DNA from: Candidatus Micrarchaeia archaeon
GTDB taxonomy: Archaea; Micrarchaeota; Micrarchaeia; Anstonellales; JAHKLY01
Length of the DNA stretch: 57,752 nt
Direction: 5' to 3'
Assembly: GCA_041653315.1 (NCBI GenBank)
Contig: JBAZFO010000004.1
Location: 1-57,752 of the forward strand
A program made the translations under genes and the position numbers. The notes under the pieces are model-generated. The model had not been told where the DNA came from and did not search any database. It was given only the letters and a program-made list of their open reading frames with translations. Of the stretch, positions 3,200 to 27,714 are shown one piece after another; the stretch's first letter is position 1, and every line of letters begins with the position of its first letter.

Positions 3200-3434
3200 C
3201 CGCAGCCCCCTTCTGGTAGGACCGCCGCACCGCCGGCGTCATGTTGGCCCAATCTTTCGGATATCTGATCTTCATGGCCGGTTGCCGCCGCGGGGCCGGA
3301 TTGATGGTCAAGGGCGCCTCGCAGGTATGACAGGGGAAATCAGGAAGACAGAAATCGCTCAACTGATTTTCGAGGCAATGAAAGAAGCTCATTTCCACCC
3401 CATAGCCCTTGCATAAAAATCGGTCAGCGCTCAT
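3192..3434 (-). CDS. Hypothetical Cys-containing small protein (80 aa)
   Basis: ORF tightly packed after the portal gene; start overlaps the portal stop. Confidence 0.45.
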   Translation of the reverse strand: MSADRFLCKGYGVEMSFFHCLENQLSDFCLPDFPCHTCEAPLTINPAPRRQPAMKIRYPKDWANMTPAVRRSYQKGAADV

Positions 3435-6400
3435 TATTCACCCACCACAGGAATGCCCACGCAACGGCAGTTGTGTGAAACAAAACCTTTGGCGATATAG
3501 CTTTCATCTTCTTCTACTGCAAAGTTATAAAGACGGCGCGATTTTTTAAGTCCCCATATCTTGACTTCCGTAATCTCAACCGCTACCTGCTCATAAGTTC
3601 CGGCATGGTTGAGGGTAAGTAGGTTAAAATATTCCCATTCAGGACCGCCCGGATTACCGTAAAAAACGTGCGCTATCTGATGATCTGGATATTGGGTCAA
3701 AATTTCAAGATCGCGGCGACGGTCTTTCTGCTGGTCAGAATGGAAAGCAGCAGAATCGCATTCAATGAACAGTTTGTCTTCCGGACAATAAAAATCTATC
3801 CGGCGACGGCCTATGCAGAATTGTTGCTTAAAAGGGAGCCCCTTCTTTTTAAGAAACCTAGCCATACTTCTTTCCAGGCTTGAGCCTTTCCATGAGGCGC
3901 GCCCCATTGCCTTGAAGGCCCCAGCTTTTAACATCTCAAGCCGAGAACCCCATTTTTGCTCAATCCCCCTCAACACTTTTTTATGAAAATCGCTTCCTGG
4001 GGTTCGGTCAACCGCGGCAAAAAACCCGCCTGGGCCATATTTGCCAAAGGCAACTTCCCGGGCCTTCTTAGTAATTTCATCCGGTTCCCTGACTCCTGCC
4101 GCATATTCTCGATTTAGTTGAGCACTGGTTTTTCGACTTATATTTTCCCGGTGGGCCGGGCTACTCCATTGCCCATCGGTAATCTTCTTGCTCAGACAGG
4201 AACGGTTGCAGTAGCCAAGCCAATAAGGAATTGGGGCGCCGCAATATTTACAGAAAGCGGCCATGACCATGATCTTGTTACCAGGCTGAATATCGTGGGC
4301 ATGTTTCCAGGAACCGTCAGCCATTAAAAAGCGGTGGTTTGGCGTAATGGTTATGCCACGCTTGCTTTTTTCCCGGTCTCCTGTCGGAATTAGCCTAATT
4401 ACTTCGCCCATGTAAGACAGTTGGGGAGAAAGGCGGGTGACTTTTCTAAAGCGGTTTTGGTGAGTCAAAACCATATCCCCGGGGCGAATCTTGCCAATAG
4501 ATTTCCATCCACTATCCGTAAAGATTGGAATTTGGTGATCAACAAAGCAGCTAATCACTTCCCCCGCCGTGCCCTCCGGGTCGCAAGGATACCGGCAGCC
4601 GTTCGGGAAGGTCTGTCCCCGCTTACGCTGCATCCCGGCCTGCGCTGCATGGGTGTCCCGGACCTCGCCGTCCCCCGCCGTGCCCCACTCGATGTTTTCA
4701 ACCTTGAGCTTGTCCATGGCCGCATCACGGGCCGCGGCCATGCACTGGCCCGTTTCGGTCCTGGCGATGGTCAGGCTCCGGGATTCAGTGAAATTGAAGA
4801 CCTCGCGAACGCGCTCCTGCAACTGCCCCGCCGACTCGGTATTTGCCAGCCCCTCAGAGATAGTCTCCCGGAGCTTTTCCCGGGTCAGGTCGTTGATCTG
4901 CACGACCTTGATGAGCTTGTCCTGCAATACCTCCAGGGCGGCGCTGTCCTGAATGACGAACTCGCCAGCATCAACGCCCAGCTCGGCGTAAATATCGCTC
5001 CCGGCTTCCTGTCCGGCGTTCAGGTAGAGCGGCCAGATTTTAGCCCTGAGCTTGCCGTTTGCCTCTGTCAGGTTAAACAGGAGGTCGTCGGGGTCCATCG
5101 GAGTTTCCCGTACAAGGCCCTTGTCGCCCAGCTTGTCGGAGATGAGCTTGAGCTGGAGCTTGCGCTGATCATAGAAATAGCTTTTGATCTTCCCCCGGAA
5201 TTTCTCTTCTATGGCGGTGCGCAGCTTGTTGTACTTCTGCCAGTAGCTCTTGGCGTCGCGCCGGGCCGGGGCCGGGAGGGCCTTGCGGGGTAAGTCCTGG
5301 ACTGACAATACCTGTGCTTTCTGAGGTTCGGCGGCCGGGGCCGGGGCCTGAATTGAACCGGCCGGCTGCAAGTTGAAAGGGAGGTAACCAACATTGCCGC
5401 CGTCGATCTCCGGGAGGCCCATGTCCAGATGCTCGTTAATCACGTTGGCCGGGTAGCCCATAGCGAACAACTTTTGAGCCTGGCCCAGGAGTATGTCCCG
5501 ATCTTCCTGTAGGGCCGGGATGGATTTGCGGTCGAACTCCGGCCAGACCCCCCCCGTGATGGTATGGCAAAGCTGGCCCCATAACCCCATTTCAATCAGG
5601 GTCATGTACGGGTCGAGGGTTGTCTCCCAAAAGCGTTTCCGGGCCACCTTATCCTTGGCGTAGGACCCGGTATCATCCTCGATGCCAAGCTCGCCTTTGG
5701 GGACCTTGTAGATGCCGCCCAATATTTCATCCCGGTTGAGCTTGCGTCCCTCCAGGAAGAGCATGTCAGATTGGGATATACCGGTCTGTTTATAGGTGAT
5801 CCCGCCTTCCAGGAGGGCTATCTCATGGGCCTTATCGACGCCCTGGTGCCGGTCGTTCCATTGAGCCAGGAGACGGTCGAACTCCTCTTGTATGAGGTTT
5901 TCTTTACTCTCCAGGACCCCGCCCGGCTGTGCCCCGTTGACGAAAAAGTTCCGGTTGTATTTGGCGGCGTAGTAATCCTGTTCAAGGCTCAGTCGGGCAA
6001 CCTCAAGAGGGGAGAGCCCCCGGTAATCATCGTAGGGATTGAACCGCTTGATATGGACAACCTCATGGGGCAGTAGCGGGAGCGGCTTCGTCTTACCACG
6101 ATAAATCCAGCCCCGGATCAGGCCGCCCTCGCCGGGAACGTGCTGAAAGCGGCCCGGATGAAAGGTCCAGATTTCCTTGGGAACTTGGGTGGCATTTTCC
6201 CGGTCCAGGATATAGATAGACTCCCCGGTGATCCCCAGGAAGATCAGGGTAGCTTCGATAAGCTGGTACGTGCTCATCATGGGATTCGGAGTTTCAAAGA
6301 GCTTCACCAGGGGGCCGGACTCGACCAGGCGCTTGTCCTTTTTGGTACCGGTGTAGAAGCTCAGGGGCACCCCGGCGATGTTCTGGGAGATGGCATTAAC

Positions 6401-6634
6401 ACAGGCATAGACCCAGACGTGTTGGGCGTAGGGGCGCGTGACGCCGCTCAGGAGGTGCGACCATCCGGTGAAGGGAGTGGCGAAGAACATCTGCTCGATG
6501 GCGCCGAAGTTGGGGGAGGTGAGGGTGGCGGGGTCGGCCTGGCGCACTACCAGGTCACGGCCTGCCCCAGCGCCCCCGTCTCCGAAACCGCTTAATCTCT
6601 GGATGTAGTCGAATCCCCGGCTGATGAGTCCCAT
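3434..6634 (-). CDS. Portal protein fused to a Mu F/SPP1 gp7-like head-morphogenesis domain, interrupted by an intein (1066 aa precursor, 706 aa after splicing)
   Basis: Portal-like N-terminal 450 aa; MuF-like TIARTETGQ...W.TAGDGEVRDTHAAQAG...CRC at the C-terminus; 360-aa Hint insertion before CRC. Confidence 0.85.
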   Translation of the reverse strand: MGLISRGFDYIQRLSGFGDGGAGAGRDLVVRQADPATLTSPNFGAIEQMFFATPFTGWSHLLSGVTRPYAQHVWVYACVNAISQNIAGVPLSFYTGTKKDKRLVESGPLVKLFETPNPMMSTYQLIEATLIFLGITGESIYILDRENATQVPKEIWTFHPGRFQHVPGEGGLIRGWIYRGKTKPLPLLPHEVVHIKRFNPYDDYRGLSPLEVARLSLEQDYYAAKYNRNFFVNGAQPGGVLESKENLIQEEFDRLLAQWNDRHQGVDKAHEIALLEGGITYKQTGISQSDMLFLEGRKLNRDEILGGIYKVPKGELGIEDDTGSYAKDKVARKRFWETTLDPYMTLIEMGLWGQLCHTITGGVWPEFDRKSIPALQEDRDILLGQAQKLFAMGYPANVINEHLDMGLPEIDGGNVGYLPFNLQPAGSIQAPAPAAEPQKAQVLSVQDLPRKALPAPARRDAKSYWQKYNKLRTAIEEKFRGKIKSYFYDQRKLQLKLISDKLGDKGLVRETPMDPDDLLFNLTEANGKLRAKIWPLYLNAGQEAGSDIYAELGVDAGEFVIQDSAALEVLQDKLIKVVQINDLTREKLRETISEGLANTESAGQLQERVREVFNFTESRSLTIARTETGQCMAAARDAAMDKLKVENIEWGTAGDGEVRDTHAAQAGMQRKRGQTFPNGCRYPCDPEGTAGEVISCFVDHQIPIFTDSGWKSIGKIRPGDMVLTHQNRFRKVTRLSPQLSYMGEVIRLIPTGDREKSKRGITITPNHRFLMADGSWKHAHDIQPGNKIMVMAAFCKYCGAPIPYWLGYCNRSCLSKKITDGQWSSPAHRENISRKTSAQLNREYAAGVREPDEITKKAREVAFGKYGPGGFFAAVDRTPGSDFHKKVLRGIEQKWGSRLEMLKAGAFKAMGRASWKGSSLERSMARFLKKKGLPFKQQFCIGRRRIDFYCPEDKLFIECDSAAFHSDQQKDRRRDLEILTQYPDHQIAHVFYGNPGGPEWEYFNLLTLNHAGTYEQVAVEITEVKIWGLKKSRRLYNFAVEEDESYIAKGFVSHNCRCVGIPVVGE
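3470..4549 (-). mobile_element. Intein (360 aa) with DUF559/Vsr-like endonuclease domain
   Basis: Starts at Cys (tgc at 4549-4547, CFVDHQIPIF), TxxH block (TPNHRF), ends ...GFVSHN followed by +1 Cys (CRC); internal RRRIDFYCPEDKLFIECDSAAFH motif; more AT-rich than the flanks. Confidence 0.85.
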
Positions 6635-11505: not shown

Positions 11506-11512
11506 CATATCC

Positions 11513-14900: not shown

Positions 14901-14911
14901 AAATCCTCCTC

Positions 14912-15172: not shown

Positions 15173-15177
15173 AGCCT

Positions 15178-15387: not shown

Positions 15388-15397
15388 CTCCTATTTT

Positions 15398-15472
15398 TGG
15401 TAGTCCTGCCTGGACTCGAACCAGGGTCTGACCCTTATAAGGGGTCGGCTCTAACCATTGAGCTACAGGACC
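15398..15472 (-). tRNA. tRNA-Ile, anticodon UAU, CCA encoded
   Basis: Hand-folded cloverleaf: GGTCCTG/TA/GCTC-AATGGTTA-GAGC/C/GACCC-CTTATAA-GGGTC/AGAC/CCTGG-TTCGAGT-CCAGG/CAGGACT/A/CCA. Confidence 0.85.
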
Positions 15473-15481
15473 GGTGGTTGA

Positions 15482-16927: not shown

Positions 16928-16930
16928 GGT

Positions 16931-17506: not shown

Positions 17507-17634
17507 CCTCCCACCCCCAGTAGCATCAAGGCCATTATCCCGATAACCTGCAACGGCTTCCACGGCCAGAGCCAGAATGTCAAGAGGCTGGCCGAAAAGA
17601 ACACGATGGCGCCGAATAAGAACCGCGCGATCAT
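17503..17634 (-). CDS. Small membrane peptide (43 aa, MIARFLFGAIVFFSASLLTFWLW...)
   Basis: ATGA overlaps at both ends; hydrophobic; under 60 aa. Confidence 0.35.
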   Translation of the reverse strand: MIARFLFGAIVFFSASLLTFWLWPWKPLQVIGIMALMLLGVGG

Positions 17635-17807
17635 GGCCCCGCCTCCCCCAGCCTCAACTGTTCCTCCCAAAGCGGCGCCCAGATATCCTCATCCGTTCTG
17701 AGCATGATCCCGCCACACTCGGTGCAGAGGGCCGTATAATCGTCGATCCCGGCCACCCGTTGTTCACTTTCGCCACAGTCTACACAGAGATATTCGTAAA
17801 GTGGCAT
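17631..17807 (-). CDS. FmdB-family-like zinc-ribbon protein (58 aa)
   Basis: MPLYEYLCVDCG...CTECGG, typical of the FmdB/CxxC_CxxC_SSSS family; AGGAGG-like RBS. Confidence 0.6.
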   Translation of the reverse strand: MPLYEYLCVDCGESEQRVAGIDDYTALCTECGGIMLRTDEDIWAPLWEEQLRLGEAGP

Positions 17808-17816
17808 AAAGACCTC

Positions 17817-18098
17817 CTATTCGTTATCCCTCAGAACCCTCTCCAATACCGATTTGGCGTACTGCATGGCCGCGAGATGATCCTCAAGTTCACTTAACGC
17901 TTCCTGCAGGAGTTCCGCGGTGGTGGAGCTGTCGAATTCCTGGCCGTCCACCAGGGTCAGGGGGCCGCAGCAGAGTTTGGAAGACTGGCCGTCGGTATCC
18001 AGGGCGAAACAATAAGTCATGCCAGGGGCCGTCTCCCAAATCGTCTCTTCATTGCTCACCCGGTTCAGTTCCTTGATTAACTCGAAAATCTTGTGCAT
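17817..18098 (-). CDS. Hypothetical protein (93 aa)
   Basis: ORF with AAGGAGGGG RBS upstream. Confidence 0.5.
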   Translation of the reverse strand: MHKIFELIKELNRVSNEETIWETAPGMTYCFALDTDGQSSKLCCGPLTLVDGQEFDSSTTAELLQEALSELEDHLAAMQYAKSVLERVLRDNE

Positions 18099-18268
18099 TA
18101 TGCGAACCCCTCCTTAAAAAAGAATTGCCCCGATCTTCAACCCGGGATTGTTACGCCGCTATCTTTCGGCATGTCCGCAGGCGTCCGGATTTACTTGTCT
18201 CGACCTCGAGGCGACAGCCGCCTTATTTGCCCGCGGTTTCCCGGCCCGCTGAATAGCTAAGGCCGAAA

Positions 18269-19357
18269 TCAGAAGAGCATGGGGGTGGAGGTGGGCTTGT
18301 CCGGTTGCTCGAATTTCTGTCGGGCCATATTGACGTTGTTCAGGGCGAAGCGATGATAAGACTCCTTGAGTTCAAAGCCTACGCAGTTGCGGCCCTGCTC
18401 CACGGCCACATATTGAGTGCTGCCTATTCCAGCAAAAGGATCTAAAATCGTATCGCCCGGTGCGGAGTAGAGCTTGATGCAGCGGCGGATTACCTCAAGC
18501 TGTAAGGGGCATACGTGGCGCTCTTCCTGGTTCTCCTTGCACTTCTTGTAGCCTTCCAGGGTGTCGATTTCCTGGATATCTGTCCAGCACCCGTGCGCCC
18601 ACCGTATCCAGTCGAGCTTGGTAAACCAGCCGTCCGGGTTGATATGCTTGCCGCCGATCACGGTCTTGACCTGAGTCCCCTTATTTTCTTCCCAGGTTTC
18701 GATCTCATAGGGGATGGTCTGGTAGTCGGGTCGCACCCGCTTGACCGCGTGGCCATTAAAGCCGGTGTCATGTAGGTATTCCAGGATCGGAGAGGGCTCC
18801 ACCAATTTCAATTCCCGGTTGGCTTCGATAAGGCCATGCAGGGGCACCCCCTCGCCGGGCTTTTTGAAGAACAGGACGTAATCATTCATGGCCGGGGCCA
18901 GGGCTCGACAATCCCGGTAGGCCGTGGCGAACATGAGGGAGTGGAGGTTGAGGCGCCGGGCTACCGCCTGGGGATTTTTGACGATGGCGACTTCTCCATG
19001 AGGTTGAAAGCCGTGGTTTTCAAATAATGCAATAACGGAACCGCGGAAATCCCTTAGTCCTTGGAAACCATGTTGCACTTTGTATCTAAGAAGTTGTTGC
19101 ACATGGATTGCTGCTATAGAGCCTGGCTTTAACACTCGAAAGGCCTGTTCAATGAAAAATCTCATGTGGAGAGCAAACTGCCCTTCATGCATCTGTACTC
19201 CGTCAATATTATTCCCGATATCTTCTCCCTTGTGACTATATGAGAAAAGACTTCCGAAAGGGATGGACGTAACAAGGTGATCTATGCTTTCATCCTTAAG
19301 ATACTGTTGCATTCCAGGGATACAATCACCTTGATAAATATTAATATCTACTATCAC
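18269..19357 (-). CDS. DNA methyltransferase, beta-class N6A/N4C (362 aa)
   Basis: Motif IV-like TSIPFG near the N-terminus, motif I DPFAGIGST near the C-terminus (beta order). Confidence 0.75.
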   Translation of the reverse strand: MIVDINIYQGDCIPGMQQYLKDESIDHLVTSIPFGSLFSYSHKGEDIGNNIDGVQMHEGQFALHMRFFIEQAFRVLKPGSIAAIHVQQLLRYKVQHGFQGLRDFRGSVIALFENHGFQPHGEVAIVKNPQAVARRLNLHSLMFATAYRDCRALAPAMNDYVLFFKKPGEGVPLHGLIEANRELKLVEPSPILEYLHDTGFNGHAVKRVRPDYQTIPYEIETWEENKGTQVKTVIGGKHINPDGWFTKLDWIRWAHGCWTDIQEIDTLEGYKKCKENQEERHVCPLQLEVIRRCIKLYSAPGDTILDPFAGIGSTQYVAVEQGRNCVGFELKESYHRFALNNVNMARQKFEQPDKPTSTPMLF

Positions 19358-19366
19358 AATAACCTC

Positions 19367-20056
19367 TCATAGTTGTAGCATTGGTTGAAATGGTTTTTCG
19401 ATTTTGTTGTTTTTTCTTAGGTTATCTAAGGCCCATAGAGGTCTAAGGTTTTTTAGAGACCAACATCTCTTGAAGTCGAGATGCGATGGATCAGAAAAGT
19501 TAAATTTAGAGACTGGAATTATGTGATCTATATGCCAATCTCCATAATTATCCCATGACATACCAGGGATAAATAGTTTTTCAAGATGCTTTTTAAGGTC
19601 AGATAATGAATATCCAACGAGTTTTTCCCAATGAGTATTTGATTTATTACTACCAGACCGCTTTAATGATTGCCAGATAGAGCAGCTGACGTTCATTCTT
19701 AAGCGATATTTATGATCAATAGCGCGTTTTTTCCTCCTTTGCTTATTTCGGTTCTCGATAACTTTGGGATTAGAAAAATACTTTTCTCTTGAAGCCTTTA
19801 TTTCTGGCTTCTCGTAATAGCCGCCGCCCCTTCTGGTTTTCTCATATTCTTTCCTTTTTGATTTGATCTTTGGTGAGTTGTTTCTAAGCCTTTTCTTTTC
19901 TACTGCTATGGGAGTTTTTGCATAATCCAATGACCTTTTATTAGTGCATTTTTTACAGCTTGAATAACGGCCATCGGATGCCCTTTTATCAACATAAAAC
20001 TCTGATAATGGCATACTGGTTTTGCATGAAGCGCAAACTTTACTTTCGGCCACCAT
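19367..20056 (-). CDS. HNH endonuclease (229 aa)
   Basis: C-terminal WHIDHIIPVSKF...LRPLWALDNLRKNNK; strongly AT-rich island. Confidence 0.75.
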   Translation of the reverse strand: MVAESKVCASCKTSMPLSEFYVDKRASDGRYSSCKKCTNKRSLDYAKTPIAVEKKRLRNNSPKIKSKRKEYEKTRRGGGYYEKPEIKASREKYFSNPKVIENRNKQRRKKRAIDHKYRLRMNVSCSIWQSLKRSGSNKSNTHWEKLVGYSLSDLKKHLEKLFIPGMSWDNYGDWHIDHIIPVSKFNFSDPSHLDFKRCWSLKNLRPLWALDNLRKNNKIEKPFQPMLQL

Positions 20057-20540
20057 TGAGTCTCTCCAGATAAAAGCTATGGGTTGATTTGAAGTGTCCG
20101 CCTTGAATACTCTCCCTGACCTGAGCCTTAAAACTCATTACCGCATCCATACGAGTTACACAATTGACGGCCAGTTTCGGCTCAAAAATCGTATTGAGCC
20201 AGAGCCACCATTTGGGGGCCAAGTGCCAGGATAATTTATCAGCAAAGTAGAGTTTGCTTTTTGCTTGACCGCTATGCGTACAATGTCCCGCCAAAAGGTC
20301 ATATGCCCATTCCCCAAATAATTTTCCCCCAATCCTGGCTCCGGCCCGCCAATGAGTTTTCTTCTCTTCATAGGAGTTCAGGTAGTTGAGTCCGAAGTGG
20401 CCCACATCATGCAGAAATATACAGATCGTTTCTCTCCATGAAGGGAGCTTGCCGTAAAGCCGCTGCCAAGCTCGAATCACCATGAGGCTGTGCACTGGAG
20501 AATGGCAACCGCAGATAATTGAAATGGTGCCCTGTGTCAT
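20040..20540 (-). CDS. Hypothetical protein with HD-like motif (166 aa)
   Basis: H...FLHDVGHFG resembles an HD phosphohydrolase signature; weak. Confidence 0.35.
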   Translation of the reverse strand: MTQGTISIICGCHSPVHSLMVIRAWQRLYGKLPSWRETICIFLHDVGHFGLNYLNSYEEKKTHWRAGARIGGKLFGEWAYDLLAGHCTHSGQAKSKLYFADKLSWHLAPKWWLWLNTIFEPKLAVNCVTRMDAVMSFKAQVRESIQGGHFKSTHSFYLERLNGGRK

Positions 20541-22186
20541 GACACCCCCTTAAGCGCCTGAATGTAATTCTCTTCCATCGTCCAAACCTCCTCCGCGGTC
20601 CGGCGCCGCTTCTGATTGATGTTGTCATAAACCACCCCTTCAAGCTCAGGGATAAACGGATAGTGCATCTTGACGGCCTTGGTTTGGCCGTAGCGGTAGG
20701 ACCGGCGCTCAAGCTGATAACGCTGCTCTTCCGAATCATTGAACCCGGAAATGATATTCGAGCCGCAGGCCTGGAAATTTAGGCCGTAGCCCAGGAGTTG
20801 CGCTTTGGTGATGAGGCAATCACTCTCGCCCTTGCGGAACCGTTCGATGATAGGCAACCGGGCCTTTTTCGGGAGGCTCCCGGTAATCATCTCCACCAGG
20901 TAGCCATGATCCTTGAGCAGGTCGAAGAGTATCCGGCTTTCCTCATCGAAGACGGTCCAGATTAGGACCTTGAGGCCGTCTTTCATATCCTTAAGGGCTA
21001 AATCAGCGCAGAACTGAGGCTTATGGGAAGCTACCGGAATGATCTTGCGGCCCGGGCCTGCCTCCCCCTCATAAAGAAAACCCTTGGCCATTTCGGAGTA
21101 TTTGATGCGCTGCACCATCTCCAACTTTTCCCAACCGCCAAATAATGTCGCCTGGCCGGAAGCGTCAGGTAGCCGGTGAATGAGGTCTAACTGCTCCTGG
21201 GTAATCTTGAGGCGATATTCTGTGGTGACAGGATCCGGCAGGTCCTTGAGATGATCCTGGAAGCCGTACCGGGCCGGGTTGCGCATGTAGATGGACCAGC
21301 CGGAGAGAAAACGGTAGAAGGCGCTCTTGGCGTTATCCTTCACCTTCCATTCGCCGTCTTTTGTGCGACAGAAGAACGTCCAGATGATTTCGCCCTCGTT
21401 GCGCAGCTTTTCCAGGAAAGACCCCTGAGAGGCGTACTCCATTGTCTCATTGGGCGCCGGCGTGGCGGTGAAGGTGTATTTGTATTCGATGCCCCGGCAA
21501 CTCTTGATAAGCGCCCACTTGATGGTGCCCCCGCCCGACTTGAGAAGGGAGGCCTCATCCAGCAAGGCCCCGGCTAGCCATTGACATTCCGAGATGGTTT
21601 CCGCCTCACCCTTCCGGGGGATAAACTTTTCGGGGTTGATGATGGCGATTCCGGGTCCTGGGCCGGTACACCAGGTTCTGAGGGCTTGCTGTGATTCCAA
21701 TTGGGTAATTTCCGGATACTCAGGAGGAAAATAATACGGGTTCTGTAAATCAGTAACCCCGTAAAATTTTATGGTTTCGTCTATGGTTTGCTGAATCAGG
21801 TTTAGGGGAACGATCAGAAGTACCCGACCCTGCGTCTTGTGCATCACTTGGCGGGCCAATTCCAGCATCATAAGCGCCTTGCCCAATCCCGTGTCACACC
21901 ACACAGCAAATCTCTTCGCAGGCAGTGAAAGTGCCCGGACAATCCATTCCTGATAATCAAAAAGGTTGGGGTTGAAGGGAAGCCACCCTCTTTCTTGGTA
22001 AACATCCTCCAGGCCGAAGATATGGGCGAACCGGGAAGGGGTTTTTAGCTGATAACTGTCGGTCTCCCAGGCATAGGACAGGTTGCACTCCGGGAGCTGC
22101 TTCGATTTGAGAAAGACTTGGTAATCCTCCAGGCTGAACGGTGCCTTGAAATCTACCTGTATCGTGTCGCCTTCTACGCTTATCAC
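20537..22186 (-). CDS. SNF2/DEAD-like superfamily 2 helicase (549 aa)
   Basis: Motif I DTGLGKA, motif II LLDEAS, C-terminal helicase lobe LITKAQLLGYGLNFQ; GTG start with TAAGGAGG. Confidence 0.8.
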   Translation of the reverse strand: MISVEGDTIQVDFKAPFSLEDYQVFLKSKQLPECNLSYAWETDSYQLKTPSRFAHIFGLEDVYQERGWLPFNPNLFDYQEWIVRALSLPAKRFAVWCDTGLGKALMMLELARQVMHKTQGRVLLIVPLNLIQQTIDETIKFYGVTDLQNPYYFPPEYPEITQLESQQALRTWCTGPGPGIAIINPEKFIPRKGEAETISECQWLAGALLDEASLLKSGGGTIKWALIKSCRGIEYKYTFTATPAPNETMEYASQGSFLEKLRNEGEIIWTFFCRTKDGEWKVKDNAKSAFYRFLSGWSIYMRNPARYGFQDHLKDLPDPVTTEYRLKITQEQLDLIHRLPDASGQATLFGGWEKLEMVQRIKYSEMAKGFLYEGEAGPGRKIIPVASHKPQFCADLALKDMKDGLKVLIWTVFDEESRILFDLLKDHGYLVEMITGSLPKKARLPIIERFRKGESDCLITKAQLLGYGLNFQACGSNIISGFNDSEEQRYQLERRSYRYGQTKAVKMHYPFIPELEGVVYDNINQKRRRTAEEVWTMEENYIQALKGVS

Positions 22187-22199
22187 TGCATCCTCCTTA

Positions 22200-22870
22200 C
22201 CCCCGGTGCTGTTGCCTTACGCAATCCAGTTACCAGGGGCTATATGTGAGCATTGGCGCTCATCAAAAGGGGTAGTCTCCGCCAGAAGTCCTACCCCCAA
22301 AAATCAGAGCCATACTTGTTAAGGTTCTCGCCACTGTCGCCCTTCCCGGCTGCCCTCCCGTCCTTGACGCTTTCGGTACTCCGCCGGCCTTCCCTTCACC
22401 CCTGGGGTTAATAAGCTGGCCATGCCTGGGCTTTCCCTACGTCGCGCCGCCTACGGGTCGCCTCATTTCCGGGTCTTGACTTCAACACGCTTAACGGGGC
22501 CGTGCTCCCCTAAATTGTCTCGGTTGTTCAGGTTCATCGCCTTGGCGTCCGCCGCCAGATCACTTTCGGTTGTGTCTCCTACCTGGAGAGGCAGATTCGA
22601 TCTACCCACCAGGAGGGGCCTCGATTCGGCTGGCGAACTCTGCGCCCCATTTGCAATTTCTTGGGCTCGCTACGCCCCAGGGTTGCTATCCCCTCTCACC
22701 CCGCCTTTGAGCCATATTTCAGGCTTCGGTTTTCGTGGGGTTAGGCTGGCCTGGTTCGGCTGTTCCGGGTTTTTTCGCTGGTGGCCCATTCCCTGCCACC
22801 GCCCGCCCTGTATTTTTCGGTTTTTTGTGGGTGTTTGGTAACCTCCTGGTATGTTTGATTAGCTTTATAT
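22200..22870 (-). other. Long ORF-free, purine-rich (minus strand) leader; candidate structured RNA
   Basis: About 670 nt at coding-like GC with stops in all minus frames; many GC stems with GAAA-type loops (CCGAAAG twice, GGAAAT, CGAAAA); lies between the promoter at about 22.88 kb and the helicase start. Confidence 0.35.
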
Positions 22871-22877
22871 GGTCATA

Positions 22878-22927
22878 ACCTTACCATGCGGTAAGATCGT
22901 GTCAAGCAAAAAATAACCTTGCGGTAA
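22878..22927 (-). promoter_or_regulatory. Candidate early-left promoter flanked and overlapped by two repressor operators
   Basis: Minus strand TTGACA (22905-22900), 16 nt, TAAGGT (22883-22878); palindromes TTACCATGCGGTAA (22881-22894) and TAACCTTGCGGTAA (22914-22927). Confidence 0.45.
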
Positions 22928-23102
22928 GAAAAAATCTGATTTTTTTGTTTTTCCGGGGATTGCAGAAATTCGATAGAGATTAAAGCGTGTTACGAATCAA
23001 AAAATAAATGGAAAAGACAGAATGATTTTTTTAAAGATAAATAGGAGATATTCCGAATATATGGGCGGGTCTTATATCAAGGCATCGAGGGAGGATTTGG
23101 TC

Positions 23103-23417
23103 ATGAAATTATCGGAGAAGCTGATTGCCCCTTTGATCTATGTCTTTTTGGGCTTTTTAATGGTGCCTGGCCAACAATCGGTAATAATCTATAAATCACC
23201 GCAGGCATTCCGGGAGGCCGTAGCTATTTATGATGCAAACAATAAGCGGGTGACACCTGCATACATAGCCAGGACAGCCGCTTTAGTACCAGGAAATACA
23301 GAAGCCGATTTACTTGAATGTTCCTGGAGCTATGGCTTAGATAAAGTCATGATCACTAAGGGTAAATTTGAGGGTGTAATTGGGTGGGTGCCCATAGAGT
23401 GGTATCATTCAAAATAA
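23103..23417 (+). CDS. Plus-strand moron: membrane-anchored/secreted small protein (104 aa)
   Basis: GGGAGGA RBS; N-terminal hydrophobic LIAPLIYVFLGFLMV; AT-rich; convergent with the terminase ATPase gene. Confidence 0.55.
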   Translation: MKLSEKLIAPLIYVFLGFLMVPGQQSVIIYKSPQAFREAVAIYDANNKRVTPAYIARTAALVPGNTEADLLECSWSYGLDKVMITKGKFEGVIGWVPIEWYHSK

Positions 23418-23428
23418 GATGAGGCGAG

Positions 23429-24469
23429 CTACAGCCCCGCCGCCCCCTCGCCGCCCCCGCCTTCCGGGTCCTCATCATCCCGTTTGGGCGGGTCCTGGAC
23501 GTGCAAAAGCCAGTCGAACTCTCCGTAGATCAAGCCCTCCTGGCTCGGCTTGTTGCACAACATCTCACTATTCCAGGTATCCACTGAGACCTGGCGGCGT
23601 TTGGTGATAGCGTCCTCGATTCCGTAGAAGCCGTCTGCGGCCCGCGCCTTGCCCTGGCAATCCGGCCAAAGTTCGCACAAGGCGCACTCCCGATCCGGGG
23701 TACACCGTTCGATCACGTCAAAAATACACCACTTGTAAACCCGGTAGCCCCTTTCATCGGCTTCGGTGATTACCTGGTTCATGAGCCCGTAAGCCTTGTG
23801 CATGGTGGAGAAGATTTGCAGACTGGACTTGATGCCCCGTTTCGTTTGGGGGACCAGGAGGGCGGCCTGGTAGATCGACGGGTCCATTTCGTCAACCTCG
23901 TCGAGCTTCATTTTCTGAGGGTGCGCGCCCCGGACGCTCCGGGATGAGGCGGTGAGGATTTGGATGTTGGACTGATTGTTGAGCTTGGAGCCCTGGGCTA
24001 GCATTTCCCCGTTAAGCAGGTATTGAAAGTCCTCCGTAACCAGCCCCCAGCCGTCCCCCTCGCCGGTCAGGTGCTCATAGACCCTTTTGCTTTGCTCCTG
24101 TGAGCCCCCTAAGATTTTCGTGGAGCAGCCGCCCTTGAAGGCGCTGTCAAGCCAGGTGCACAGTCCGGCCAGGAGGGTTTTGCCGCCGCCCCGGTTCGAC
24201 CAACAGATGGAGTTCTGGACGCGCTCAAAGAAGGTGTCGCAGATGTAGTCGGCGGGGGAGTTATGGTGCTCACAGACGTGAGCCCGGGGGATGGTGAGGG
24301 GGTTGCCGGATTTATCGGGGTAGGCCCGGGCGATGAAGCCTAAGAGGTCTTTGTCGTCTCGGAAGCCATGCTCCCGGTAATATTCGATTTCCTTTTGGAG
24401 TTCGCTCTCTTCCTGCCCCAGCAGATTGTTGCTCTCGGCCTTTTGAATGCGGCCCCGTAGATTAGCCAC
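23429..24469 (-). CDS. terL: Large terminase, ATPase domain only (346 aa)
   Basis: Walker A NRGGGKT, Walker B KLDEVDE, coupling motif LTASSRSVRG; ends in a low-complexity tail right where a nuclease domain normally begins. Confidence 0.8.
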   Translation of the reverse strand: MANLRGRIQKAESNNLLGQEESELQKEIEYYREHGFRDDKDLLGFIARAYPDKSGNPLTIPRAHVCEHHNSPADYICDTFFERVQNSICWSNRGGGKTLLAGLCTWLDSAFKGGCSTKILGGSQEQSKRVYEHLTGEGDGWGLVTEDFQYLLNGEMLAQGSKLNNQSNIQILTASSRSVRGAHPQKMKLDEVDEMDPSIYQAALLVPQTKRGIKSSLQIFSTMHKAYGLMNQVITEADERGYRVYKWCIFDVIERCTPDRECALCELWPDCQGKARAADGFYGIEDAITKRRQVSVDTWNSEMLCNKPSQEGLIYGEFDWLLHVQDPPKRDDEDPEGGGGEGAAGL

Positions 24470-24872
24470 ACTGGAGCTTTTCTTCTATGGCGGCCATGCG
24501 AGCCTCAAGCTCGGTAAGCTCTAGTCCCTTCCGGTAAAGCTCCATCATGCTCGACAGCGCCTGCCCCTCGCCGGGGGTGATCCGCCCCCTGGATACTGCG
24601 GAGAGAATTGCGGCCATAGCCTTGGGGATGTCCGCCACCGTTTCGACCTTGGGGAGCTTTATCGACAGGGGGAGTTCCCTCCGCAGCGGGATGATCCGTT
24701 CAAGACAGAGCTTGAGGGCTACGGGGTCCCCTTTCTTGGCCTTGTTTATGGCCTTGCGGGTCAGGGCCTCAGCTTCCCCGTCCAGAAGAACCATCGCCGC
24801 CTTGGTAGTCTTACTGAGGGTGCCTTTCGGCTTGCCGCTGGGGTTGCCTGACTGTCCTTTTTTAAAGGCCAT
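24462..24872 (-). CDS. terS: Small terminase candidate (DUF5681-like N-terminus)
   Basis: MAFKKGQSGNPSGKPKG N-terminal motif, helical C-terminus, directly upstream of the terL ATPase with an 8-nt overlap. Confidence 0.55.
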   Translation of the reverse strand: MAFKKGQSGNPSGKPKGTLSKTTKAAMVLLDGEAEALTRKAINKAKKGDPVALKLCLERIIPLRRELPLSIKLPKVETVADIPKAMAAILSAVSRGRITPGEGQALSSMMELYRKGLELTELEARMAAIEEKLQCG

Positions 24873-24890
24873 TGTTTTTTCCTTGATTAA

Positions 24891-25430
24891 TCAATACGAT
24901 GCGTTTAGCCCCACCCACCACGTTAGAAAATACCGCAGTCCGTCAAGCCCGTGGTGGGGTCCCGTGCCCGGCACATGTTCCCGGTACAGGTTGAACTCCC
25001 CCAGAAATCGCCGGTAGCAATACTCACCGCAAGCGCACTTCCCGACCTTGGCGAAGGTGAGCCCGGACTCCCCTTTGGTTATGGCCGCCGCCTTGAGCCA
25101 CTGCTTGACGAGTTCATGGCCTGGCTCAACCCGTCCCGACTGCCCGACTATATCCACCCCGAAGACTTGGGAGTAGGTGCGCAACGCTTCCGGCTTGGAG
25201 GGATCGCCTGCGCCGCCGGTTAGCTGGCCATAGCCCCGGCCCTGGTGAATCTTGAGCAAAATCTTCCCATTTTCTTCGTTCGTGCGGTATGCCTGGTAGT
25301 GGGCATACAGGACCTGGACCTTTTCGTGGTCGGCGGAGGGTTGAAGCCAGAGTGCACAATTATTTTTCCAACCGAAGTCCACGCCCAGGTAAATCGGATT
25401 GTCCGGGCTGTAGTAGGGGTCTATCAGCAT
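24891..25430 (-). CDS. Stand-alone large-terminase nuclease (RNase H-like) domain protein
   Basis: IYLGVDFG, GAGDPSKPE and HHGLDGLRYF match the three acidic-residue blocks of terminase C-terminal nuclease domains. Confidence 0.65.
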   Translation of the reverse strand: MLIDPYYSPDNPIYLGVDFGWKNNCALWLQPSADHEKVQVLYAHYQAYRTNEENGKILLKIHQGRGYGQLTGGAGDPSKPEALRTYSQVFGVDIVGQSGRVEPGHELVKQWLKAAAITKGESGLTFAKVGKCACGEYCYRRFLGEFNLYREHVPGTGPHHGLDGLRYFLTWWVGLNASY

Positions 25431-25434
25431 TCCC

Positions 25435-25719
25435 TCATCCCCACAGCACAACTCCCCTGTTATTTTCAATGCTGGCCTGAACTGCCGGGGCACCCTTTGC
25501 CGATTCTCCTACCGCCTGCCCTTCCCTGTCTGTCACCCCCTGGCCGTCGCTTACAAAGGCTCTCATGCTGTCGTTCATCTCAAGGGCGGTGCTCAGGGTT
25601 CGGATGACCCCGCAGGCCGCCTGCTTGAGCCACCGCTTTTCTGTTTCGGTGAGGGTACGGCCCAGAATCAAGATATGCTCCGGGCCGCCGTCGATGGACA
25701 GGTGGATGGTGGTGTTCAT
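25435..25719 (-). CDS. Hypothetical protein (94 aa)
   Basis: ORF in operon. Confidence 0.45.
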   Translation of the reverse strand: MNTTIHLSIDGGPEHILILGRTLTETEKRWLKQAACGVIRTLSTALEMNDSMRAFVSDGQGVTDREGQAVGESAKGAPAVQASIENNRGVVLWG

Positions 25720-25737
25720 GATCCGCCCGACCTCCCG

Positions 25738-26124
25738 TTAATGCGCCGCCTCAGCTTCCGGCACGGGCTGATAGTTAACCGGCTGCAAGGGCCGCACCTT
25801 CTGCACCCGCACCCCCATGCCCTCGTTAATGGCCGTGGCCAGGGACTTGATTTGCAGCTTGAGCAGGTCGATAGCCTCCTTGAAGGCCGCCATGCTCGCC
25901 TTTTTGTCTTCCTCCACCTCGTTGAGTTGGGCCACTAAGCTGGCCAGTTCAATCGCCTTCGGTTCGAGTTCTGCGGTAAGAAAAAGTTGCCTCATCGGTT
26001 TTGTTCTCCCATGGATTTCGTGAAACATCGGGGTTAAGAGTTCTTCAACCGCTGCCTTGTTTTCCAGGTCGACGGATTTGCCTTGGTAGGTTATGGTGCT
26101 TTTGATTTTGTCGGTGGTGGTCAT
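25738..26124 (-). CDS. Hypothetical coiled-coil protein (128 aa)
   Basis: ORF in operon. Confidence 0.45.
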   Translation of the reverse strand: MTTTDKIKSTITYQGKSVDLENKAAVEELLTPMFHEIHGRTKPMRQLFLTAELEPKAIELASLVAQLNEVEEDKKASMAAFKEAIDLLKLQIKSLATAINEGMGVRVQKVRPLQPVNYQPVPEAEAAH

Positions 26125-26342
26125 GGGGTGTGCTCCTTGGATTTACCCTTCTCCATCTGCCGCACCCGCCGCGCCATTTCCCGGGTCTGCTTGGGCGGGT
26201 CAGCGGGTTGGCCGAAAGTCCTTTGACATTTGGGGCAGGTCACACTCACGTCCCCCAGATGCGCTTTGCCGTGATAGCCGCATTGACAGCGGTAAGGTCT
26301 GATCGTTTCGTCTTGGCGGGGAATTCGGATCATCAGATCCAC
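26121..26342 (-). CDS. Zinc-ribbon protein (73 aa)
   Basis: CQCG...CPKC motifs. Confidence 0.5.
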   Translation of the reverse strand: MDLMIRIPRQDETIRPYRCQCGYHGKAHLGDVSVTCPKCQRTFGQPADPPKQTREMARRVRQMEKGKSKEHTP

Positions 26343-26899
26343 CTCACTCGCGGTGTAACCTCAGTCGCAATCCCCAGCAAAATATAATGCAGGGCGCTCA
26401 GGGCGAAGTTGTCCATCTCAAGCGGTGCGTCCTTGACCGGACGGTTCAGCTTCTGTTCACGTCCCCGGAACCGCCCGAACTCGGCCATCAGATTAGGGCA
26501 GGCAAAAGCCCCGGCGCCATCCCGCCGTCCCGGTATCGTGTCGAAATAGAGGCTCACGGGTGCCCCCAGCTTGAAATTCGCCAGCCGTTTCTTCACCAGG
26601 TTGATCGCCAAGCTGACCTCCTTCGCCTCTACCGGGACCGCACAGAGCCGTTGTTTTCTCATGATCTTGATAAAGGCCGGCTGAGTCGGGTCGCAGTAGA
26701 ACTTTCGGACCCCAAGCTCACGTTGCCATTCTTTGGCTATCCCCACGGCGGTTTCCAATAACATGCCCTCCTGGAAGACCTCCCGGATCACCTGCACGTG
26801 GTCATGTGGCGCCGGGTCATGCCGGGCCGCAAGCAAGACGGTTGGACCCTGGAGCCCCCATTTGATGCCGACATAGACCCTGGGTTTTAATTTCTCCAC
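26333..26899 (-). CDS. Second terminase-nuclease-like paralog, first acidic residue replaced (188 aa)
   Basis: VYVGIKWG (Lys where Asp is expected), FYCDPTQP, EMDNFALSALHY; same block order as 24891-25430. Confidence 0.55.
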   Translation of the reverse strand: MEKLKPRVYVGIKWGLQGPTVLLAARHDPAPHDHVQVIREVFQEGMLLETAVGIAKEWQRELGVRKFYCDPTQPAFIKIMRKQRLCAVPVEAKEVSLAINLVKKRLANFKLGAPVSLYFDTIPGRRDGAGAFACPNLMAEFGRFRGREQKLNRPVKDAPLEMDNFALSALHYILLGIATEVTPRVRWI

Positions 26900-26900
26900 A

Positions 26901-27110
26901 TCAACCCAGGAGAGAATTATAATAATCCACGTTCACCAGCACCCAGACTCCGGCCTCATCGCGCTTGACCGGGATTTTACCCAAATGGATCAGCTTCCTC
27001 ACGGTGCGCTCATGGACACAGAGAAATTGAGCGATAGCGGGGACTCCACGATAGAACTCGACCGGAATGATGACGGGCTGTATGGTACCCTTGCTCTCCC
27101 CCTGTGTCAT
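26901..27110 (-). CDS. Helix-turn-helix DNA-binding protein (excisionase/MerR-like HTH, 69 aa)
   Basis: GVPAIAQFLCVHERTVRKLIHLGKIPV; start chosen at MTQGESK to avoid overlap with rusA. Confidence 0.55.
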   Translation of the reverse strand: MTQGESKGTIQPVIIPVEFYRGVPAIAQFLCVHERTVRKLIHLGKIPVKRDEAGVWVLVNVDYYNSLLG

Positions 27111-27141: not shown

Positions 27142-27714
27142 TTAAAAAAGCCTACCGGCCTCGACCCCGTTAAATTCTGCATGGGACGCCGCGTCCGCAT
27201 AATAATGGCCTATATCTTGGGCTTCCAACATAAGGCGACGATACCGCTCCGCCAGCCCCGCCCGGTATTCCTCCAGGGTAATGAGTTCTATTTCCCACCT
27301 GGCCGGGTCGCCATAATACTTGCCGGTTTCCGGAGCATATTTCACCACCAGGGCATCGTCGGTCCAGAAGACCCCTTTAAAAACGTCCTTCAGGTGCTTG
27401 ATGATATTGTCCAGGTCCGGCTTTTTGGTGGGGCAGATAGCACCGGTCAAGGCCTCTGCTTTAAATTTCTCACCCTTCTTGCCCTTAAGATCTGATTTGG
27501 TCATGGGCAGGAAAGCCTTGACACCTAAAACCAAGGCGCCGGTCAGGGGGGTCTGGGGGCGGTATTTATAAAGCAAAGCCAGTAGCTTTTCCTCTTCCGT
27601 CTGCTGCTTCGGGTCCTTTCGGGGCTTGCCGGCGATAGCCTTGCCGCCTGCCAGAAAAGCCCGGCCCCGCGCCCGCATTTGGCCTTTAGGCTCAAGGATG
27701 ATGGTGAATTTCAT
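27142..27714 (-). CDS. rusA: RusA-family Holliday junction resolvase
   Basis: KKPDLDNIIKHLKDVFKGVFWTDDALV motif. Confidence 0.8.
   Translation of the reverse strand: MKFTIILEPKGQMRARGRAFLAGGKAIAGKPRKDPKQQTEEEKLLALLYKYRPQTPLTGALVLGVKAFLPMTKSDLKGKKGEKFKAEALTGAICPTKKPDLDNIIKHLKDVFKGVFWTDDALVVKYAPETGKYYGDPARWEIELITLEEYRAGLAERYRRLMLEAQDIGHYYADAASHAEFNGVEAGRLF

What the first reader, a model, noticed from the sequence alone, without database searches (positions are those of the whole stretch)
23429..27110. Large terminase split into separate ATPase and nuclease ORFs in permuted order, plus a degenerate second nuclease paralog
Seen in sequence:
- ORF 23429-24469 has terminase ATPase motifs (NRGGGKT, KLDEVDE, LTASSRSVRG). 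It stops in a low-complexity tail (...EFDWLLHVQDPPKRDDEDPEGGGGEGAAGL) exactly where a nuclease domain normally starts.
- Downstream of it lie only a convergent moron and a non-coding region.
- ORF 24891-25430 carries the three nuclease-domain acidic blocks (YLGVDFG, GAGDPS, HHGLDGLRYF). It lies UPSTREAM of terS and the ATPase ORF on the same strand.
- ORF 26333-26899 has the same block order, but the first Asp is replaced (YVGIKWG; FYCDPTQP; EMDNFALSALHY).
- An HTH gene (26901-27110) sits directly upstream of that paralog.

Inference: the packaging motor may assemble from separate ATPase and nuclease polypeptides. The second paralog may be a regulatory, inactive or resolvase-like derivative; rusA is adjacent. 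Domain-split, order-permuted terminases with a duplicated nuclease module are not the textbook arrangement.
Basis: partly seen in the sequence, partly recalled or inferred. Interest (0 to 1): 0.72.

Follow-up and report, generated by a model that had tools for sequence, protein, structure and literature searches.

The report
Large terminase split into separate genes
In this phage and about 100 uncultured relatives, the DNA-packaging enzyme that is normally one protein is encoded as a separate motor gene and a separate DNA-cutting gene placed upstream of it, together with a conserved inactive copy of the cutter and a large structured RNA next door, which gives a natural system for asking how the two halves of the packaging motor cooperate.

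Summary
The window is a complete circular phage genome (122-nt end overlap) with no other terminase.

- **ATPase.** ORF 23429-24469 is a TerL ATPase. It stops exactly at the ATPase/nuclease linker.
- **The split is clade-wide.** All 102 relatives at 49% identity or more (Desulfobacterota MAGs) stop there. All 64 at 48% or less (Planctomycetota) run on about 185 aa as full-length TerL.
- **nucA (24891-25430)** is a stand-alone TerL nuclease domain. hhalign gives 98.9% probability; AF2 pLDDT is 88; the top fold matches are terminase nucleases. It keeps three catalytic Asp, has its own start codon, and begins where the ATPase ends.
- **nucB (26333-26899)** is a conserved pseudo-nuclease. The first Asp is always K/R/N/W. 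It is closest to the C-domains of a different TerL lineage of about 410 aa.
- **Linkage.** nucA, nucB and a covariation-supported RNA of about 650 nt (22191-22868, no Rfam match) co-occur with the split ATPase in 18 of 24 informative loci.
- **Satellite-like islands.** Islands of about 8 kb (integrase, primase, terS-like gene) carry only the ATPase half.

Best reading: a multi-subunit terminase assembled in trans. The assembly itself is inferred. This is a new variant of a known kind.

The parts
23429..24469 (-). TerL-N: stand-alone large-terminase ATPase (346 aa). Residues 1-324 are homologous to the ATPase domain; residues 325-346 are an acidic, Gly-rich tail.
   Evidence: It carries Walker A (GGGKT), Walker B (KLDEVDE) and the TASS motif. 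It is 38-45% identical to the N-terminal ~310 aa of 470-536-aa TerLs that carry PF17289. More than 100 homolog clusters are only 300-320 aa long. Every relative at 49% identity or more stops at HV[VI]. A terminator-like hairpin sits on the stop codon.
24462..24872 (-). Putative small terminase (DUF5681). It overlaps the ATPase start by 8 nt.
   Evidence: Pfam PF18932, E=5e-14. The role is inferred from its position. In relatives this slot holds a different, sigma-70-r4-type HTH protein.
24891..25430 (-). nucA (TerL-C): stand-alone terminase nuclease domain (179 aa).
   Evidence: hhalign against full-length TerL relatives gives probability 98.9%, E=1e-17, aligning nucA 6-166 to TerL 309-480. 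The AF2 model has pLDDT 88. The top Foldseek hits are the D6E, G20c, SPP1 and P22 terminase nucleases. Asp is conserved in the DFG, GDPS and HHxxDAxRY blocks. It has its own ATG with a purine-rich upstream sequence, 5 nt after the stop of the preceding ORF.
25435..25719 (-). 94-aa ORF of unknown function, immediately upstream of nucA and apparently translationally coupled to it.
   Evidence: Searches found no family. In relatives a different conserved 127-aa protein occupies this slot.
26333..26899 (-). nucB: conserved pseudo-nuclease with a terminase-nuclease fold (188 aa).
   Evidence: hhalign against TerL gives probability 98.1%, E=1e-13, aligning to TerL residues 313-488. The top Foldseek hits are D6E TerL and the SPP1 nuclease (model pLDDT only 58). 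The first catalytic Asp is always K/R/N/W, and the last acidic block is degenerate. The closest fused relatives are Terminase_6N/3C TerLs of about 410 aa.
26901..27110 (-). 70-aa HTH protein, start/stop-coupled to nucB.
   Evidence: Weak HTH_17 match, E=0.003. It is conserved directly upstream of nucB in relatives.
22191..22868 (-). Conserved structured non-coding RNA of about 650 nt, downstream of the ATPase gene.
   Evidence: nhmmer finds it in at least 50 split-TerL loci, always on the ATPase strand, and in none of about 64 full-length TerL loci. RNAalifold predicts 46 pairs, 27 with compensatory changes. Cells paired are 93.5% against 79.6% in shuffles; covariation score is 0.411 against 0.176 (0 of 500 shuffles reach either value). 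There is no Rfam match at E<=10. The MFE z-score is only -0.78.
23022..23417 (+). Convergent AT-rich ORF (131 aa, moron-like) between the ATPase gene and the RNA.
   Evidence: Searches found no family. It is absent from most relatives; the 3' end of a similar ORF is seen in L045.
27142..27714 (-). RusA Holliday-junction resolvase. A neighbour, not part of the terminase.
   Evidence: PF05866, E=3e-18; phrog_140, E=6e-27.
3434..6634 (-). Portal-MuF fusion protein (1066 aa), the presumed docking partner of the motor.
   Evidence: phrog_2662 portal, E=3e-100. The same portal-MuF gene follows the equivalent block in L004.

Best explanation
In this lineage of temperate phages of Desulfobacterota, the large terminase has undergone gene fission. 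The ATPase/translocase (TerL-N) and the RNase-H-fold endonuclease (nucA, TerL-C) are separate, independently translated polypeptides. They are encoded in one operon in the order nucA - terS - ATPase.

I infer that the two proteins associate non-covalently, together with TerS, to form the packaging holoenzyme. TerL-N would form the translocating ring and nucA would cut the concatemer at initiation and at headful or termination.

A second terminase-nuclease-fold protein, nucB, has lost catalytic residues but is strongly conserved. It is translated together with a small HTH protein. It most likely serves a non-catalytic role, such as DNA binding or portal docking; the latter is suggested only by its highly conserved C-terminal tail.

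Shown here: the domain identities, the clean break point, the independent starts and stops, clade-wide conservation, and co-occurrence of the pieces.

Inferred: physical assembly of the pieces, the division of labour, and the role of nucB.
For: 1. Break point. The ATPase ORF ends within about 2 codons of the HV[VI] linker motif in all 102 split loci, with varying stop codons. All 64 more distant relatives continue about 185 aa into a Terminase_6C domain.
2. nucA identity. nucA aligns to TerL residues about 311-480, abutting the point where the ATPase ends, so no residues are lost or duplicated. It has a confident nuclease fold and conserved catalytic Asp.
3. nucA is separately translated. It has its own ATG/GTG, RBS-like purines, ATGA-type overlaps with the upstream ORF, and in-frame upstream stops.
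4. Operon linkage. nucA lies on the same strand, 1.0-4.5 kb upstream of the ATPase, in 29 of 42 split loci with at least 5 kb of upstream flank. In all 22 phage-type loci listed it is missing only from L104.
5. No other terminase. The window is a complete circular genome with no other terminase.
6. Separable module. Integrase-primase islands of about 8 kb carry the terS-like gene plus the ATPase half but no nuclease. They end next to host genes. This fits an ATPase half that works with a nuclease supplied in trans.
7. nucB. The family has 13-18 clusters at 41-68% identity with invariant non-catalytic positions.
Against: There is no direct evidence that TerL-N and nucA bind each other or the portal.

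Pfam gives no hit for any of the three ORFs, and the PHROGs hits are weak (E=1e-4 to 4e-3). The domain assignments therefore rest on profile-profile and fold comparisons.

The nucB model is of low confidence (pLDDT 58, C-terminal half below 50).

In 13 of 42 split loci with at least 5 kb of upstream flank, no nucA is found within reach. Of these, L104 is phage-type (nucB and the RNA are present), seven were shown to have the integrase-primase island architecture, and five were not examined.

Separated T4 gp17 domains are each active but do not package (my recollection of the literature; not checked here). In-trans function is therefore not a given.
Confidence: 0.7

Rival explanations
1. The ATPase-only TerL is the whole motor, as in phi29-like systems. 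Genome ends are made by something else, such as an HNH endonuclease or recombination enzymes. nucA and nucB would then be RuvC/RNase-H-fold proteins used for another purpose, such as recombination, junction resolution or anti-defence.
For: Satellite-like islands carry the ATPase without any nuclease ORF. Two HNH genes and a PD-(D/E)XK, SbcC-like and Gp3-like block lie between the ATPase and portal genes. The fold search also lists RuvC and poxvirus resolvases at lower rank. RusA is adjacent.
Against: The best sequence and fold matches of nucA are terminase nuclease domains, not resolvases. It starts exactly at the TerL domain boundary. It sits in the terS-ATPase operon in nearly all phage-type loci. 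A terS gene is present, which implies cutting of concatemers. No terminal protein or protein-primed polymerase was noticed, although no systematic search was made.
Confidence: 0.15
2. The two halves are rejoined into one TerL after transcription or translation. Candidate routes are trans-splicing or back-splicing by an intron-like RNA (the RNA downstream of the ATPase gene), a split intein, or a programmed DNA rearrangement.
For: The break is perfectly clean at the domain linker. A large structured RNA always follows the ATPase gene. Back-splicing of a nucA-terS-ATPase transcript would in principle place the nuclease after the ATPase.
Against: - nucA has its own start codon and RBS, only 5 nt after the stop of the preceding ORF, which leaves no room for intron domains.
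- ATPase stop codons vary (TAA, TAG, TGA) with no conserved splice-site-like boundary.
- A terminator-like hairpin sits on the stop codon.
- The RNA starts 250-1400 nt further downstream and matches no group I or II intron or any other Rfam model, even at E<=10.
- The ORF lengths leave no room for intein fragments.
- No repeats flank the pieces.
- In L004 opposite-strand genes lie between nucA and the ATPase gene.
Confidence: 0.03
3. Assembly artefact, or a decaying (pseudogenised) terminase in a defective prophage.
For: The sequence is a metagenomic contig. The ATPase ORF in the window has an unusual low-complexity tail.
Against: The same split recurs in 102 loci from many samples and MAGs. 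Proteins are 50-72% identical with invariant motifs. The window is a complete circular genome with full structural, lysis and integration modules. A similar acidic tail recurs in a subclade (L015, L095, L057).
Confidence: 0.01

Closest known systems
Canonical two-domain large terminase (TerL; Terminase_6N/6C type, e.g. T4 gp17, P22 gp2, SPP1 G2P, D6E and G20c TerL)
   Same: ASCE ATPase with Walker A, Walker B and coupling motifs. RNase-H-fold nuclease with conserved Asp residues. Adjacent to terS. The nearest fused relatives (Planctomycetota prophages, about 500 aa) are 38-45% identical in the ATPase part.
   Different: The two domains are separate genes with their own start and stop codons. 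The nuclease gene lies upstream of terS and the ATPase gene. An extra pseudo-nuclease gene is present.
phi29 gp16 packaging ATPase with vestigial nuclease domain, plus pRNA
   Same: A packaging ATPase that does no cutting itself. A terminase-nuclease-fold module that has lost catalytic residues; the precedent is cited in the review PMC13595956. A dedicated structured RNA in the phage genome.
   Different: In phi29 the vestigial domain is fused to the ATPase and no active nuclease exists. Here an apparently active nuclease (nucA) and terS are kept. The RNA is about 650 nt and matches no Rfam model, which should include the phi29 pRNA family. Nothing links it to packaging beyond gene position.
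Phage satellites that carry their own terminase components (PICI/SaPI-type TerS; capsid-forming PICIs)
   Same: The related islands of about 8 kb have an integrase, a primase (DUF3987 type), a terS-like HTH gene and a packaging gene, and are flanked by host genes.
   Different: They carry only the ATPase half of a split TerL, which I have not seen described (own knowledge). Satellite status is inferred from gene content alone; att sites were not found.
Large ornate bacterial and phage RNAs (GOLLD, ROOL, OLE, HEARO)
   Same: The neighbouring RNA is large (about 650 nt), phage-borne, rich in GNRA-type loops and supported by covariation.
   Different: No match to any of these Rfam families. It has different conserved blocks (AAAUUGCAAAU, GGGUAGG, GGCUCUGA...UGAGCGCC) and a fixed position after the split terL ATPase gene.

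Membership tests
Large terminase (TerL) | N-terminal ASCE ATPase with Walker A, Walker B and a coupling motif, homologous to TerL ATPase domains | tested here: met
   GGGKT, KLDEVDE and TASS motifs are present. Identity to the N-terminal parts of PF17289-bearing TerLs is 38-45%. Weak phrog_7579 hit. No Pfam hit.
Large terminase (TerL) | RNase-H-fold nuclease domain with catalytic acidic residues | tested here: met
   nucA: hhalign 98.9%; fold matches to terminase nucleases; conserved Asp in three blocks.
Large terminase (TerL) | ATPase and nuclease in a single polypeptide, ATPase first | tested here: not met
   The ORFs are separate, each with its own start and stop, and the nuclease gene is upstream. 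This holds in 102 of 102 loci at 49% identity or more.
Large terminase (TerL) | Encoded next to a small terminase gene and acting as the genome's only packaging ATPase | tested here: met
   A DUF5681 gene overlaps the ATPase start. No other terminase was found in the complete circular genome.
Active terminase nuclease (applied to nucB) | Conserved Asp in beta-strand 1 (G-x-D-F-G) and the acidic DDHxxDA block | tested here: not met
   K/R/N/W replaces the first Asp in every family member, and the last block reads MDNxxxSA. In L104 the CDP block is also changed, to CNP.
phi29-type packaging system (gp16 + pRNA) | pRNA of the known family, and an ATPase with a fused vestigial domain | tested here: not met
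   No Rfam match at E<=10 in 22100-23500. The ATPase ORF ends at the linker. terS and an apparently active nuclease are present.
Intron- or intein-interrupted terL | Group I or II intron RNA, or intein blocks, at the break, with an ORF that is continuous after removal | tested here: not met
   No Rfam intron match. The pieces are in permuted order. nucA has its own start codon. There is no room for intein fragments.
Known large structured RNAs (GOLLD, ROOL, OLE, HEARO, RNase P, tmRNA, introns) | Match to the family covariance model | tested here: not met
   Rfam 15 at gathering and at E<=10 returns nothing except a tRNA elsewhere in the window.
Phage satellite (PICI-like), for the related ATPase-only islands | Small integrated element with integrase, replication and packaging-redirection genes, no virion genes, and helper dependence | tested here: inconclusive
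   Gene content and flanking host genes fit. att repeats were not found. Helper dependence cannot be tested with these tools.

The most novel reading that the evidence does not exclude
The packaging motor of this lineage is a multi-part machine, not a TerL homo-oligomer. It would consist of an ATPase ring, a detachable catalytic nuclease (nucA), a pseudo-nuclease adaptor (nucB, with its HTH partner) that docks the ring to the portal or to DNA, and the conserved RNA of about 650 nt encoded right after the ATPase gene, acting as a structural or regulatory component analogous to phi29 pRNA. Satellites would exploit this modularity by encoding only their own terS-like protein and ATPase half.
Probability: 0.1. 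Interest if true: 0.95.

Novelty: new variant of a known kind. Interest (0 to 1): 0.74.

Why it matters
TerL is treated as a universal two-domain enzyme of tailed phages and herpesviruses. A 2026 review of packaging motors that I checked (PMC13595956) does not mention natural splits.

A conserved natural fission offers three things:
1. It shows that covalent linkage of motor and nuclease is dispensable.
2. It gives a system for testing which half contacts the portal and how cutting is coupled to translocation. Both are long debated for T4, P22, HK97 and thermophilic phage motors.
3. It may explain how satellites could hijack packaging with half a terminase.

It might also affect recognition by defence sensors that bind TerL, such as the Avs proteins. 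This is speculative and was not tested here.

It also matters for annotation. These ATPase-only proteins of about 305 aa and the nuclease-fold proteins of about 170 aa are labelled 'hypothetical' in all sources seen, and Pfam misses all three.

The neighbouring RNA appears to be an undescribed large RNA class.

Tried and rejected
- **Pfam on the three ORFs:** no hits.
- **PHROGs:** only weak terminase hits.
- **PDB sequence-profile searches with the nucA and nucB alignments:** nothing meaningful.
- **tblastn of the ATPase against deposited phage genomes:** one 21%-identity hit, in a Microcystis phage. The group therefore has no cultured representative in that collection.
- **Repeats or att-like sequences linking the ATPase 3' end and the nucA 5' end:** none.
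- **Intron, intein or back-splicing idea:** rejected. The reasons are the independent starts, the variable stops, the lack of any Rfam match, and the absence of space for intron or intein parts.
- **attP-inside-terL idea** (a gene split by integration): rejected. The window is the circular form, and the pieces are internal and each complete.
- **att repeat search around the L100 island:** nothing found.
- **Sigma-70 promoter scan upstream of the RNA:** no consensus site.
- **Thermodynamic stability of the RNA:** not significant, z=-0.78. Its support comes from covariation only.
- **Literature searches for previously described split TerL or a terminase-adjacent large RNA:** nothing relevant found. 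This library is incomplete, so it is not proof of absence.

Full report
**Observation.**
- ATPase, 23429-24469 (346 aa)
- a DUF5681 terS-like gene, 24462-24872 (Pfam E=5e-14)
- nucA, 24891-25430; the mechanical ORF extends to a GTG at 25493, but homologs of 165-170 aa support the ATG at 25430
- nucB, 26333-26899
- an HTH gene, 26901-27110
- RusA, 27142-27714

Pfam finds nothing in the three terminase-like ORFs. PHROGs gives only weak 'terminase large subunit' hits (E=5e-4, 1e-4 and 4e-3).

**Genome context.** The window has an exact 122-nt overlap between its ends, so it is a complete circular assembly. It encodes:
- a portal-MuF fusion (3434-6634), a protease and a major capsid protein
- an integrase (34068-35120)
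- tail and lysis genes (36-57.7 kb)

No other terminase was found. About 16 kb of DNA-metabolism genes lie between the ATPase and portal genes: an SNF2 helicase, a methylase, two HNH genes, a Gp3-like gene, a PD-(D/E)XK nuclease, an SbcC-like gene and a PAPS-reductase-like gene. The same order is seen in a relative, L004.

**The split is a clade-wide trait.**
- The ATPase ORF has more than 100 homolog clusters at 50-72% identity. All are 300-320 aa and come from Desulfobacterota-type MAGs. Relatives at 38-45% identity are 470-536 aa and carry Terminase_6C.
- In 165 fetched loci the dichotomy is complete. Every ATPase at 49% identity or more stops within about 2 codons of the EFD..HV[VI] motif. 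Every one at 48% or less (Planctomycetota MAGs) runs on 170-198 aa.
- With HMMs and the window included, this gives 102 split and 64 full-length genes.
- Stop codons vary (TAA, TAG, TGA), and no conserved boundary sequence follows them. In the window a terminator-like hairpin overlaps the stop.

**nucA is the missing nuclease domain.**
- Its family alignment matches the full-length TerL alignment with hhalign probability 98.9% and E=1e-17. nucA residues 6-166 align to TerL residues 309-480.
- nucA therefore begins within about 2 residues of where the ATPase ORF ends.
- AlphaFold2 gives pLDDT 88.
- The best PDB fold matches are the terminase nucleases of D6E, G20c, SPP1 and P22 (E=4e-6 to 7e-5, TM 0.49-0.65). 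RuvC-type resolvases rank lower.
- Asp is conserved in the G-x-D-F-G, G-D-P-S and H-H-x-x-D-A-x-R-Y blocks.
- Across loci nucA has its own ATG or GTG, preceded by purine-rich sequence. It often has an ATGA overlap with the stop of the preceding ORF, and in-frame stops lie upstream. In the window the preceding ORF stops 5 nt before the nucA ATG.

**nucB is a conserved pseudo-nuclease.**
- hhalign against TerL gives probability 98.1% and E=1e-13 over TerL residues 313-488. Against nucA it gives only 92.7% and E=4e-7.
- The AF2 model is weak (pLDDT 58; only residues 1-110 are usable). Its best matches are still D6E TerL and the SPP1 nuclease.
- A profile search of 1.84 billion representatives finds about 18 stand-alone clusters. 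The next hits are the C-terminal domains (residues about 240-400) of TerLs of about 410-450 aa with Terminase_6N/Terminase_3C.
- In the joint alignment those TerLs read GVDFG, CDPSEP and DDHxxDALRY. The nucB family has K/R/N/W at the first Asp and MDNxxxSAL in the last block. The L104 copy has also lost the second Asp, reading CNP.
- The most conserved stretch of nucB is its C-terminal tail, LGLATEVTPRVRW[LI]. Portal docking through this tail is a lead, not a result.
- An HTH protein of about 70 aa is start/stop-coupled to nucB in the window and in relatives.

**Linkage of the parts.**
- Of 42 split loci with at least 5 kb of upstream flank, 29 have nucA and 27 have nucB. All are on the ATPase strand. 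nucA lies 1.0-4.5 kb upstream and nucB 2.4-8.5 kb upstream.
- None of the 64 full-length loci has a credible stand-alone copy. The single listed hit scores 25 bits in an 811-aa ORF.

**A conserved RNA.**
- nhmmer finds it 250-1400 nt downstream of the split ATPase in at least 50 loci, always on the same strand. It finds it in no full-length locus.
- RNAalifold on 33 non-redundant copies predicts 46 pairs, 27 of them with compensatory double changes.
- Cells paired are 93.5% against 79.6 ± 0.7% in shuffles. The covariation score is 0.411 against 0.176, with 0 of 500 shuffles reaching either value. Slid-partner controls give 0.05-0.17.
- Frequent G-U pairs fix the strand.
- Rfam gives no match, even at E<=10.
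- The MFE z-score is unremarkable at -0.78.
- The downstream gene differs between loci, so the element is not the leader of one particular gene.
- Among split loci with enough flank on both sides, 18 have nucA, nucB and the RNA. Four have none of them. One lacks only the RNA (L009) and one lacks only nucA (L104).
- This co-occurrence may simply reflect shared ancestry within one phage lineage.

**Satellite-like islands.**
- The loci with none of the three parts are small integrated elements. The order is integrase, primase (DUF3987 or a 757-aa protein), helicase, a terS-like HTH gene, then the ATPase-only TerL. The island is followed directly by host or defence genes: a sulfate symporter and a P-type ATPase in L100, and SNF2-Mrr and BrxC/D in L105.
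- Two families of such islands recur: L100, L030 and L101; and L105, L027, L067 and L062.
- Within the fetched flanks they carry a terS-like gene and the ATPase half, but no nucA, nucB or RNA. The L100-type islands also carry the conserved 127-aa gene that lies upstream of nucA in many phage loci.
- This fits a motor half that can work with a nuclease supplied in trans.
- Satellite status is inferred; no att repeats were found.

**Interpretation.** The best-supported explanation is gene fission of TerL into separately translated ATPase and nuclease subunits that act together with TerS. nucB with its HTH partner would be a non-catalytic accessory. A tandem duplication of terS-terL followed by reciprocal loss would yield the permuted order; this is inference only.

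Rivals:
- The ATPase alone is the motor and nucA/nucB serve other roles. This is possible but disfavoured by operon position and by the best matches.
- The halves are rejoined by splicing, an intein or a DNA rearrangement. This is rejected on starts, stops, spacing and the lack of Rfam matches.
- The split is an artefact or gene decay. This is rejected by conservation.

**Comparison with known systems.** This works like a terminase but fails the single-polypeptide criterion of canonical TerL.
- The closest precedent for an inactive nuclease-fold module is the vestigial domain of phi29 gp16 (cited in PMC13595956). There it is fused to the ATPase, and no active nuclease or terS exists.
- I found no description of a natural TerL fission in the searchable literature. 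That library is incomplete.

I rate this a new variant of a known kind, with interest 0.74.

Noticed in passing
window 22191-22868 (minus strand); copies in L001, L004, L021, L045 and at least 50 loci in all: A conserved structured RNA of about 650 nt lies downstream of the split terL ATPase gene. It has strong covariation support (27 of 46 pairs with compensatory changes), no Rfam match, and invariant blocks AAAUUGCAAAU, GGGUAGG and GGCUCUGA...UGAGCGCC. It is absent from relatives with full-length TerL. It is possibly an undescribed class of large RNA.
   Followed up: yes
L100 3111-10858; L105 1642-10599; also L030, L101, L027, L067, L062: Integrated islands of about 8 kb carry an integrase, a primase (DUF3987 type), a helicase, a terS-like HTH gene and an ATPase-only TerL, and are flanked by host or defence genes. 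No nuclease ORF and no RNA copy is present. They look like phage satellites that carry half a terminase.
   Followed up: partly
window 1-122 and 57631-57752: The two ends share an exact 122-nt overlap, so the contig is a complete circular (or terminally redundant) phage genome of about 57.6 kb.
   Followed up: yes
window 6882-22186 (minus strand): [quoted passage not shown] The Gp3-like, PD-(D/E)XK, SbcC-like and portal order is conserved in L004.
   Followed up: partly
window 3434-6634 (minus strand): The portal is fused to a MuF-like head-morphogenesis domain. Its C-terminal ~160 aa hit HNH/homing-endonuclease PHROGs. The L004 homolog has a faint intein-splicing Pfam hit.
   Followed up: no
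just downstream of the ATPase stop in many loci (e.g. L025, L090, L022, L112): A conserved non-coding motif of roughly ACTGATTCCCCAnAAATAA ... CCCAATAACGTT directly follows the ATPase stop codon. It could be a pac/cos-related site, a terminator or a promoter region for the RNA.
   Followed up: no
window 23429-23494 (ATPase residues 325-346); L015, L095, L057: A subclade carries an acidic, Gly-rich C-terminal tail (DP.EDGPEG.AG-like) after the HV motif where other members stop. It might be a docking peptide.
   Followed up: no
window 15398-15472 (minus strand): A phage-encoded tRNA-Ile with anticodon TAT.
   Followed up: no
window 19001-20056: A sharp GC dip (0.375, against about 0.55 elsewhere) coincides with an HNH/endonuclease VII-like gene (19367-20056). 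This suggests a recently acquired homing endonuclease.
   Followed up: no
slot between nucA and the ATPase gene, window versus relatives (e.g. L100 9103-9570, L001 7199-7672): The terS slot is occupied by non-homologous proteins: DUF5681 in the window and a sigma-70-r4-type HTH protein in most relatives. terS has therefore been swapped while the split TerL halves were kept.
   Followed up: partly
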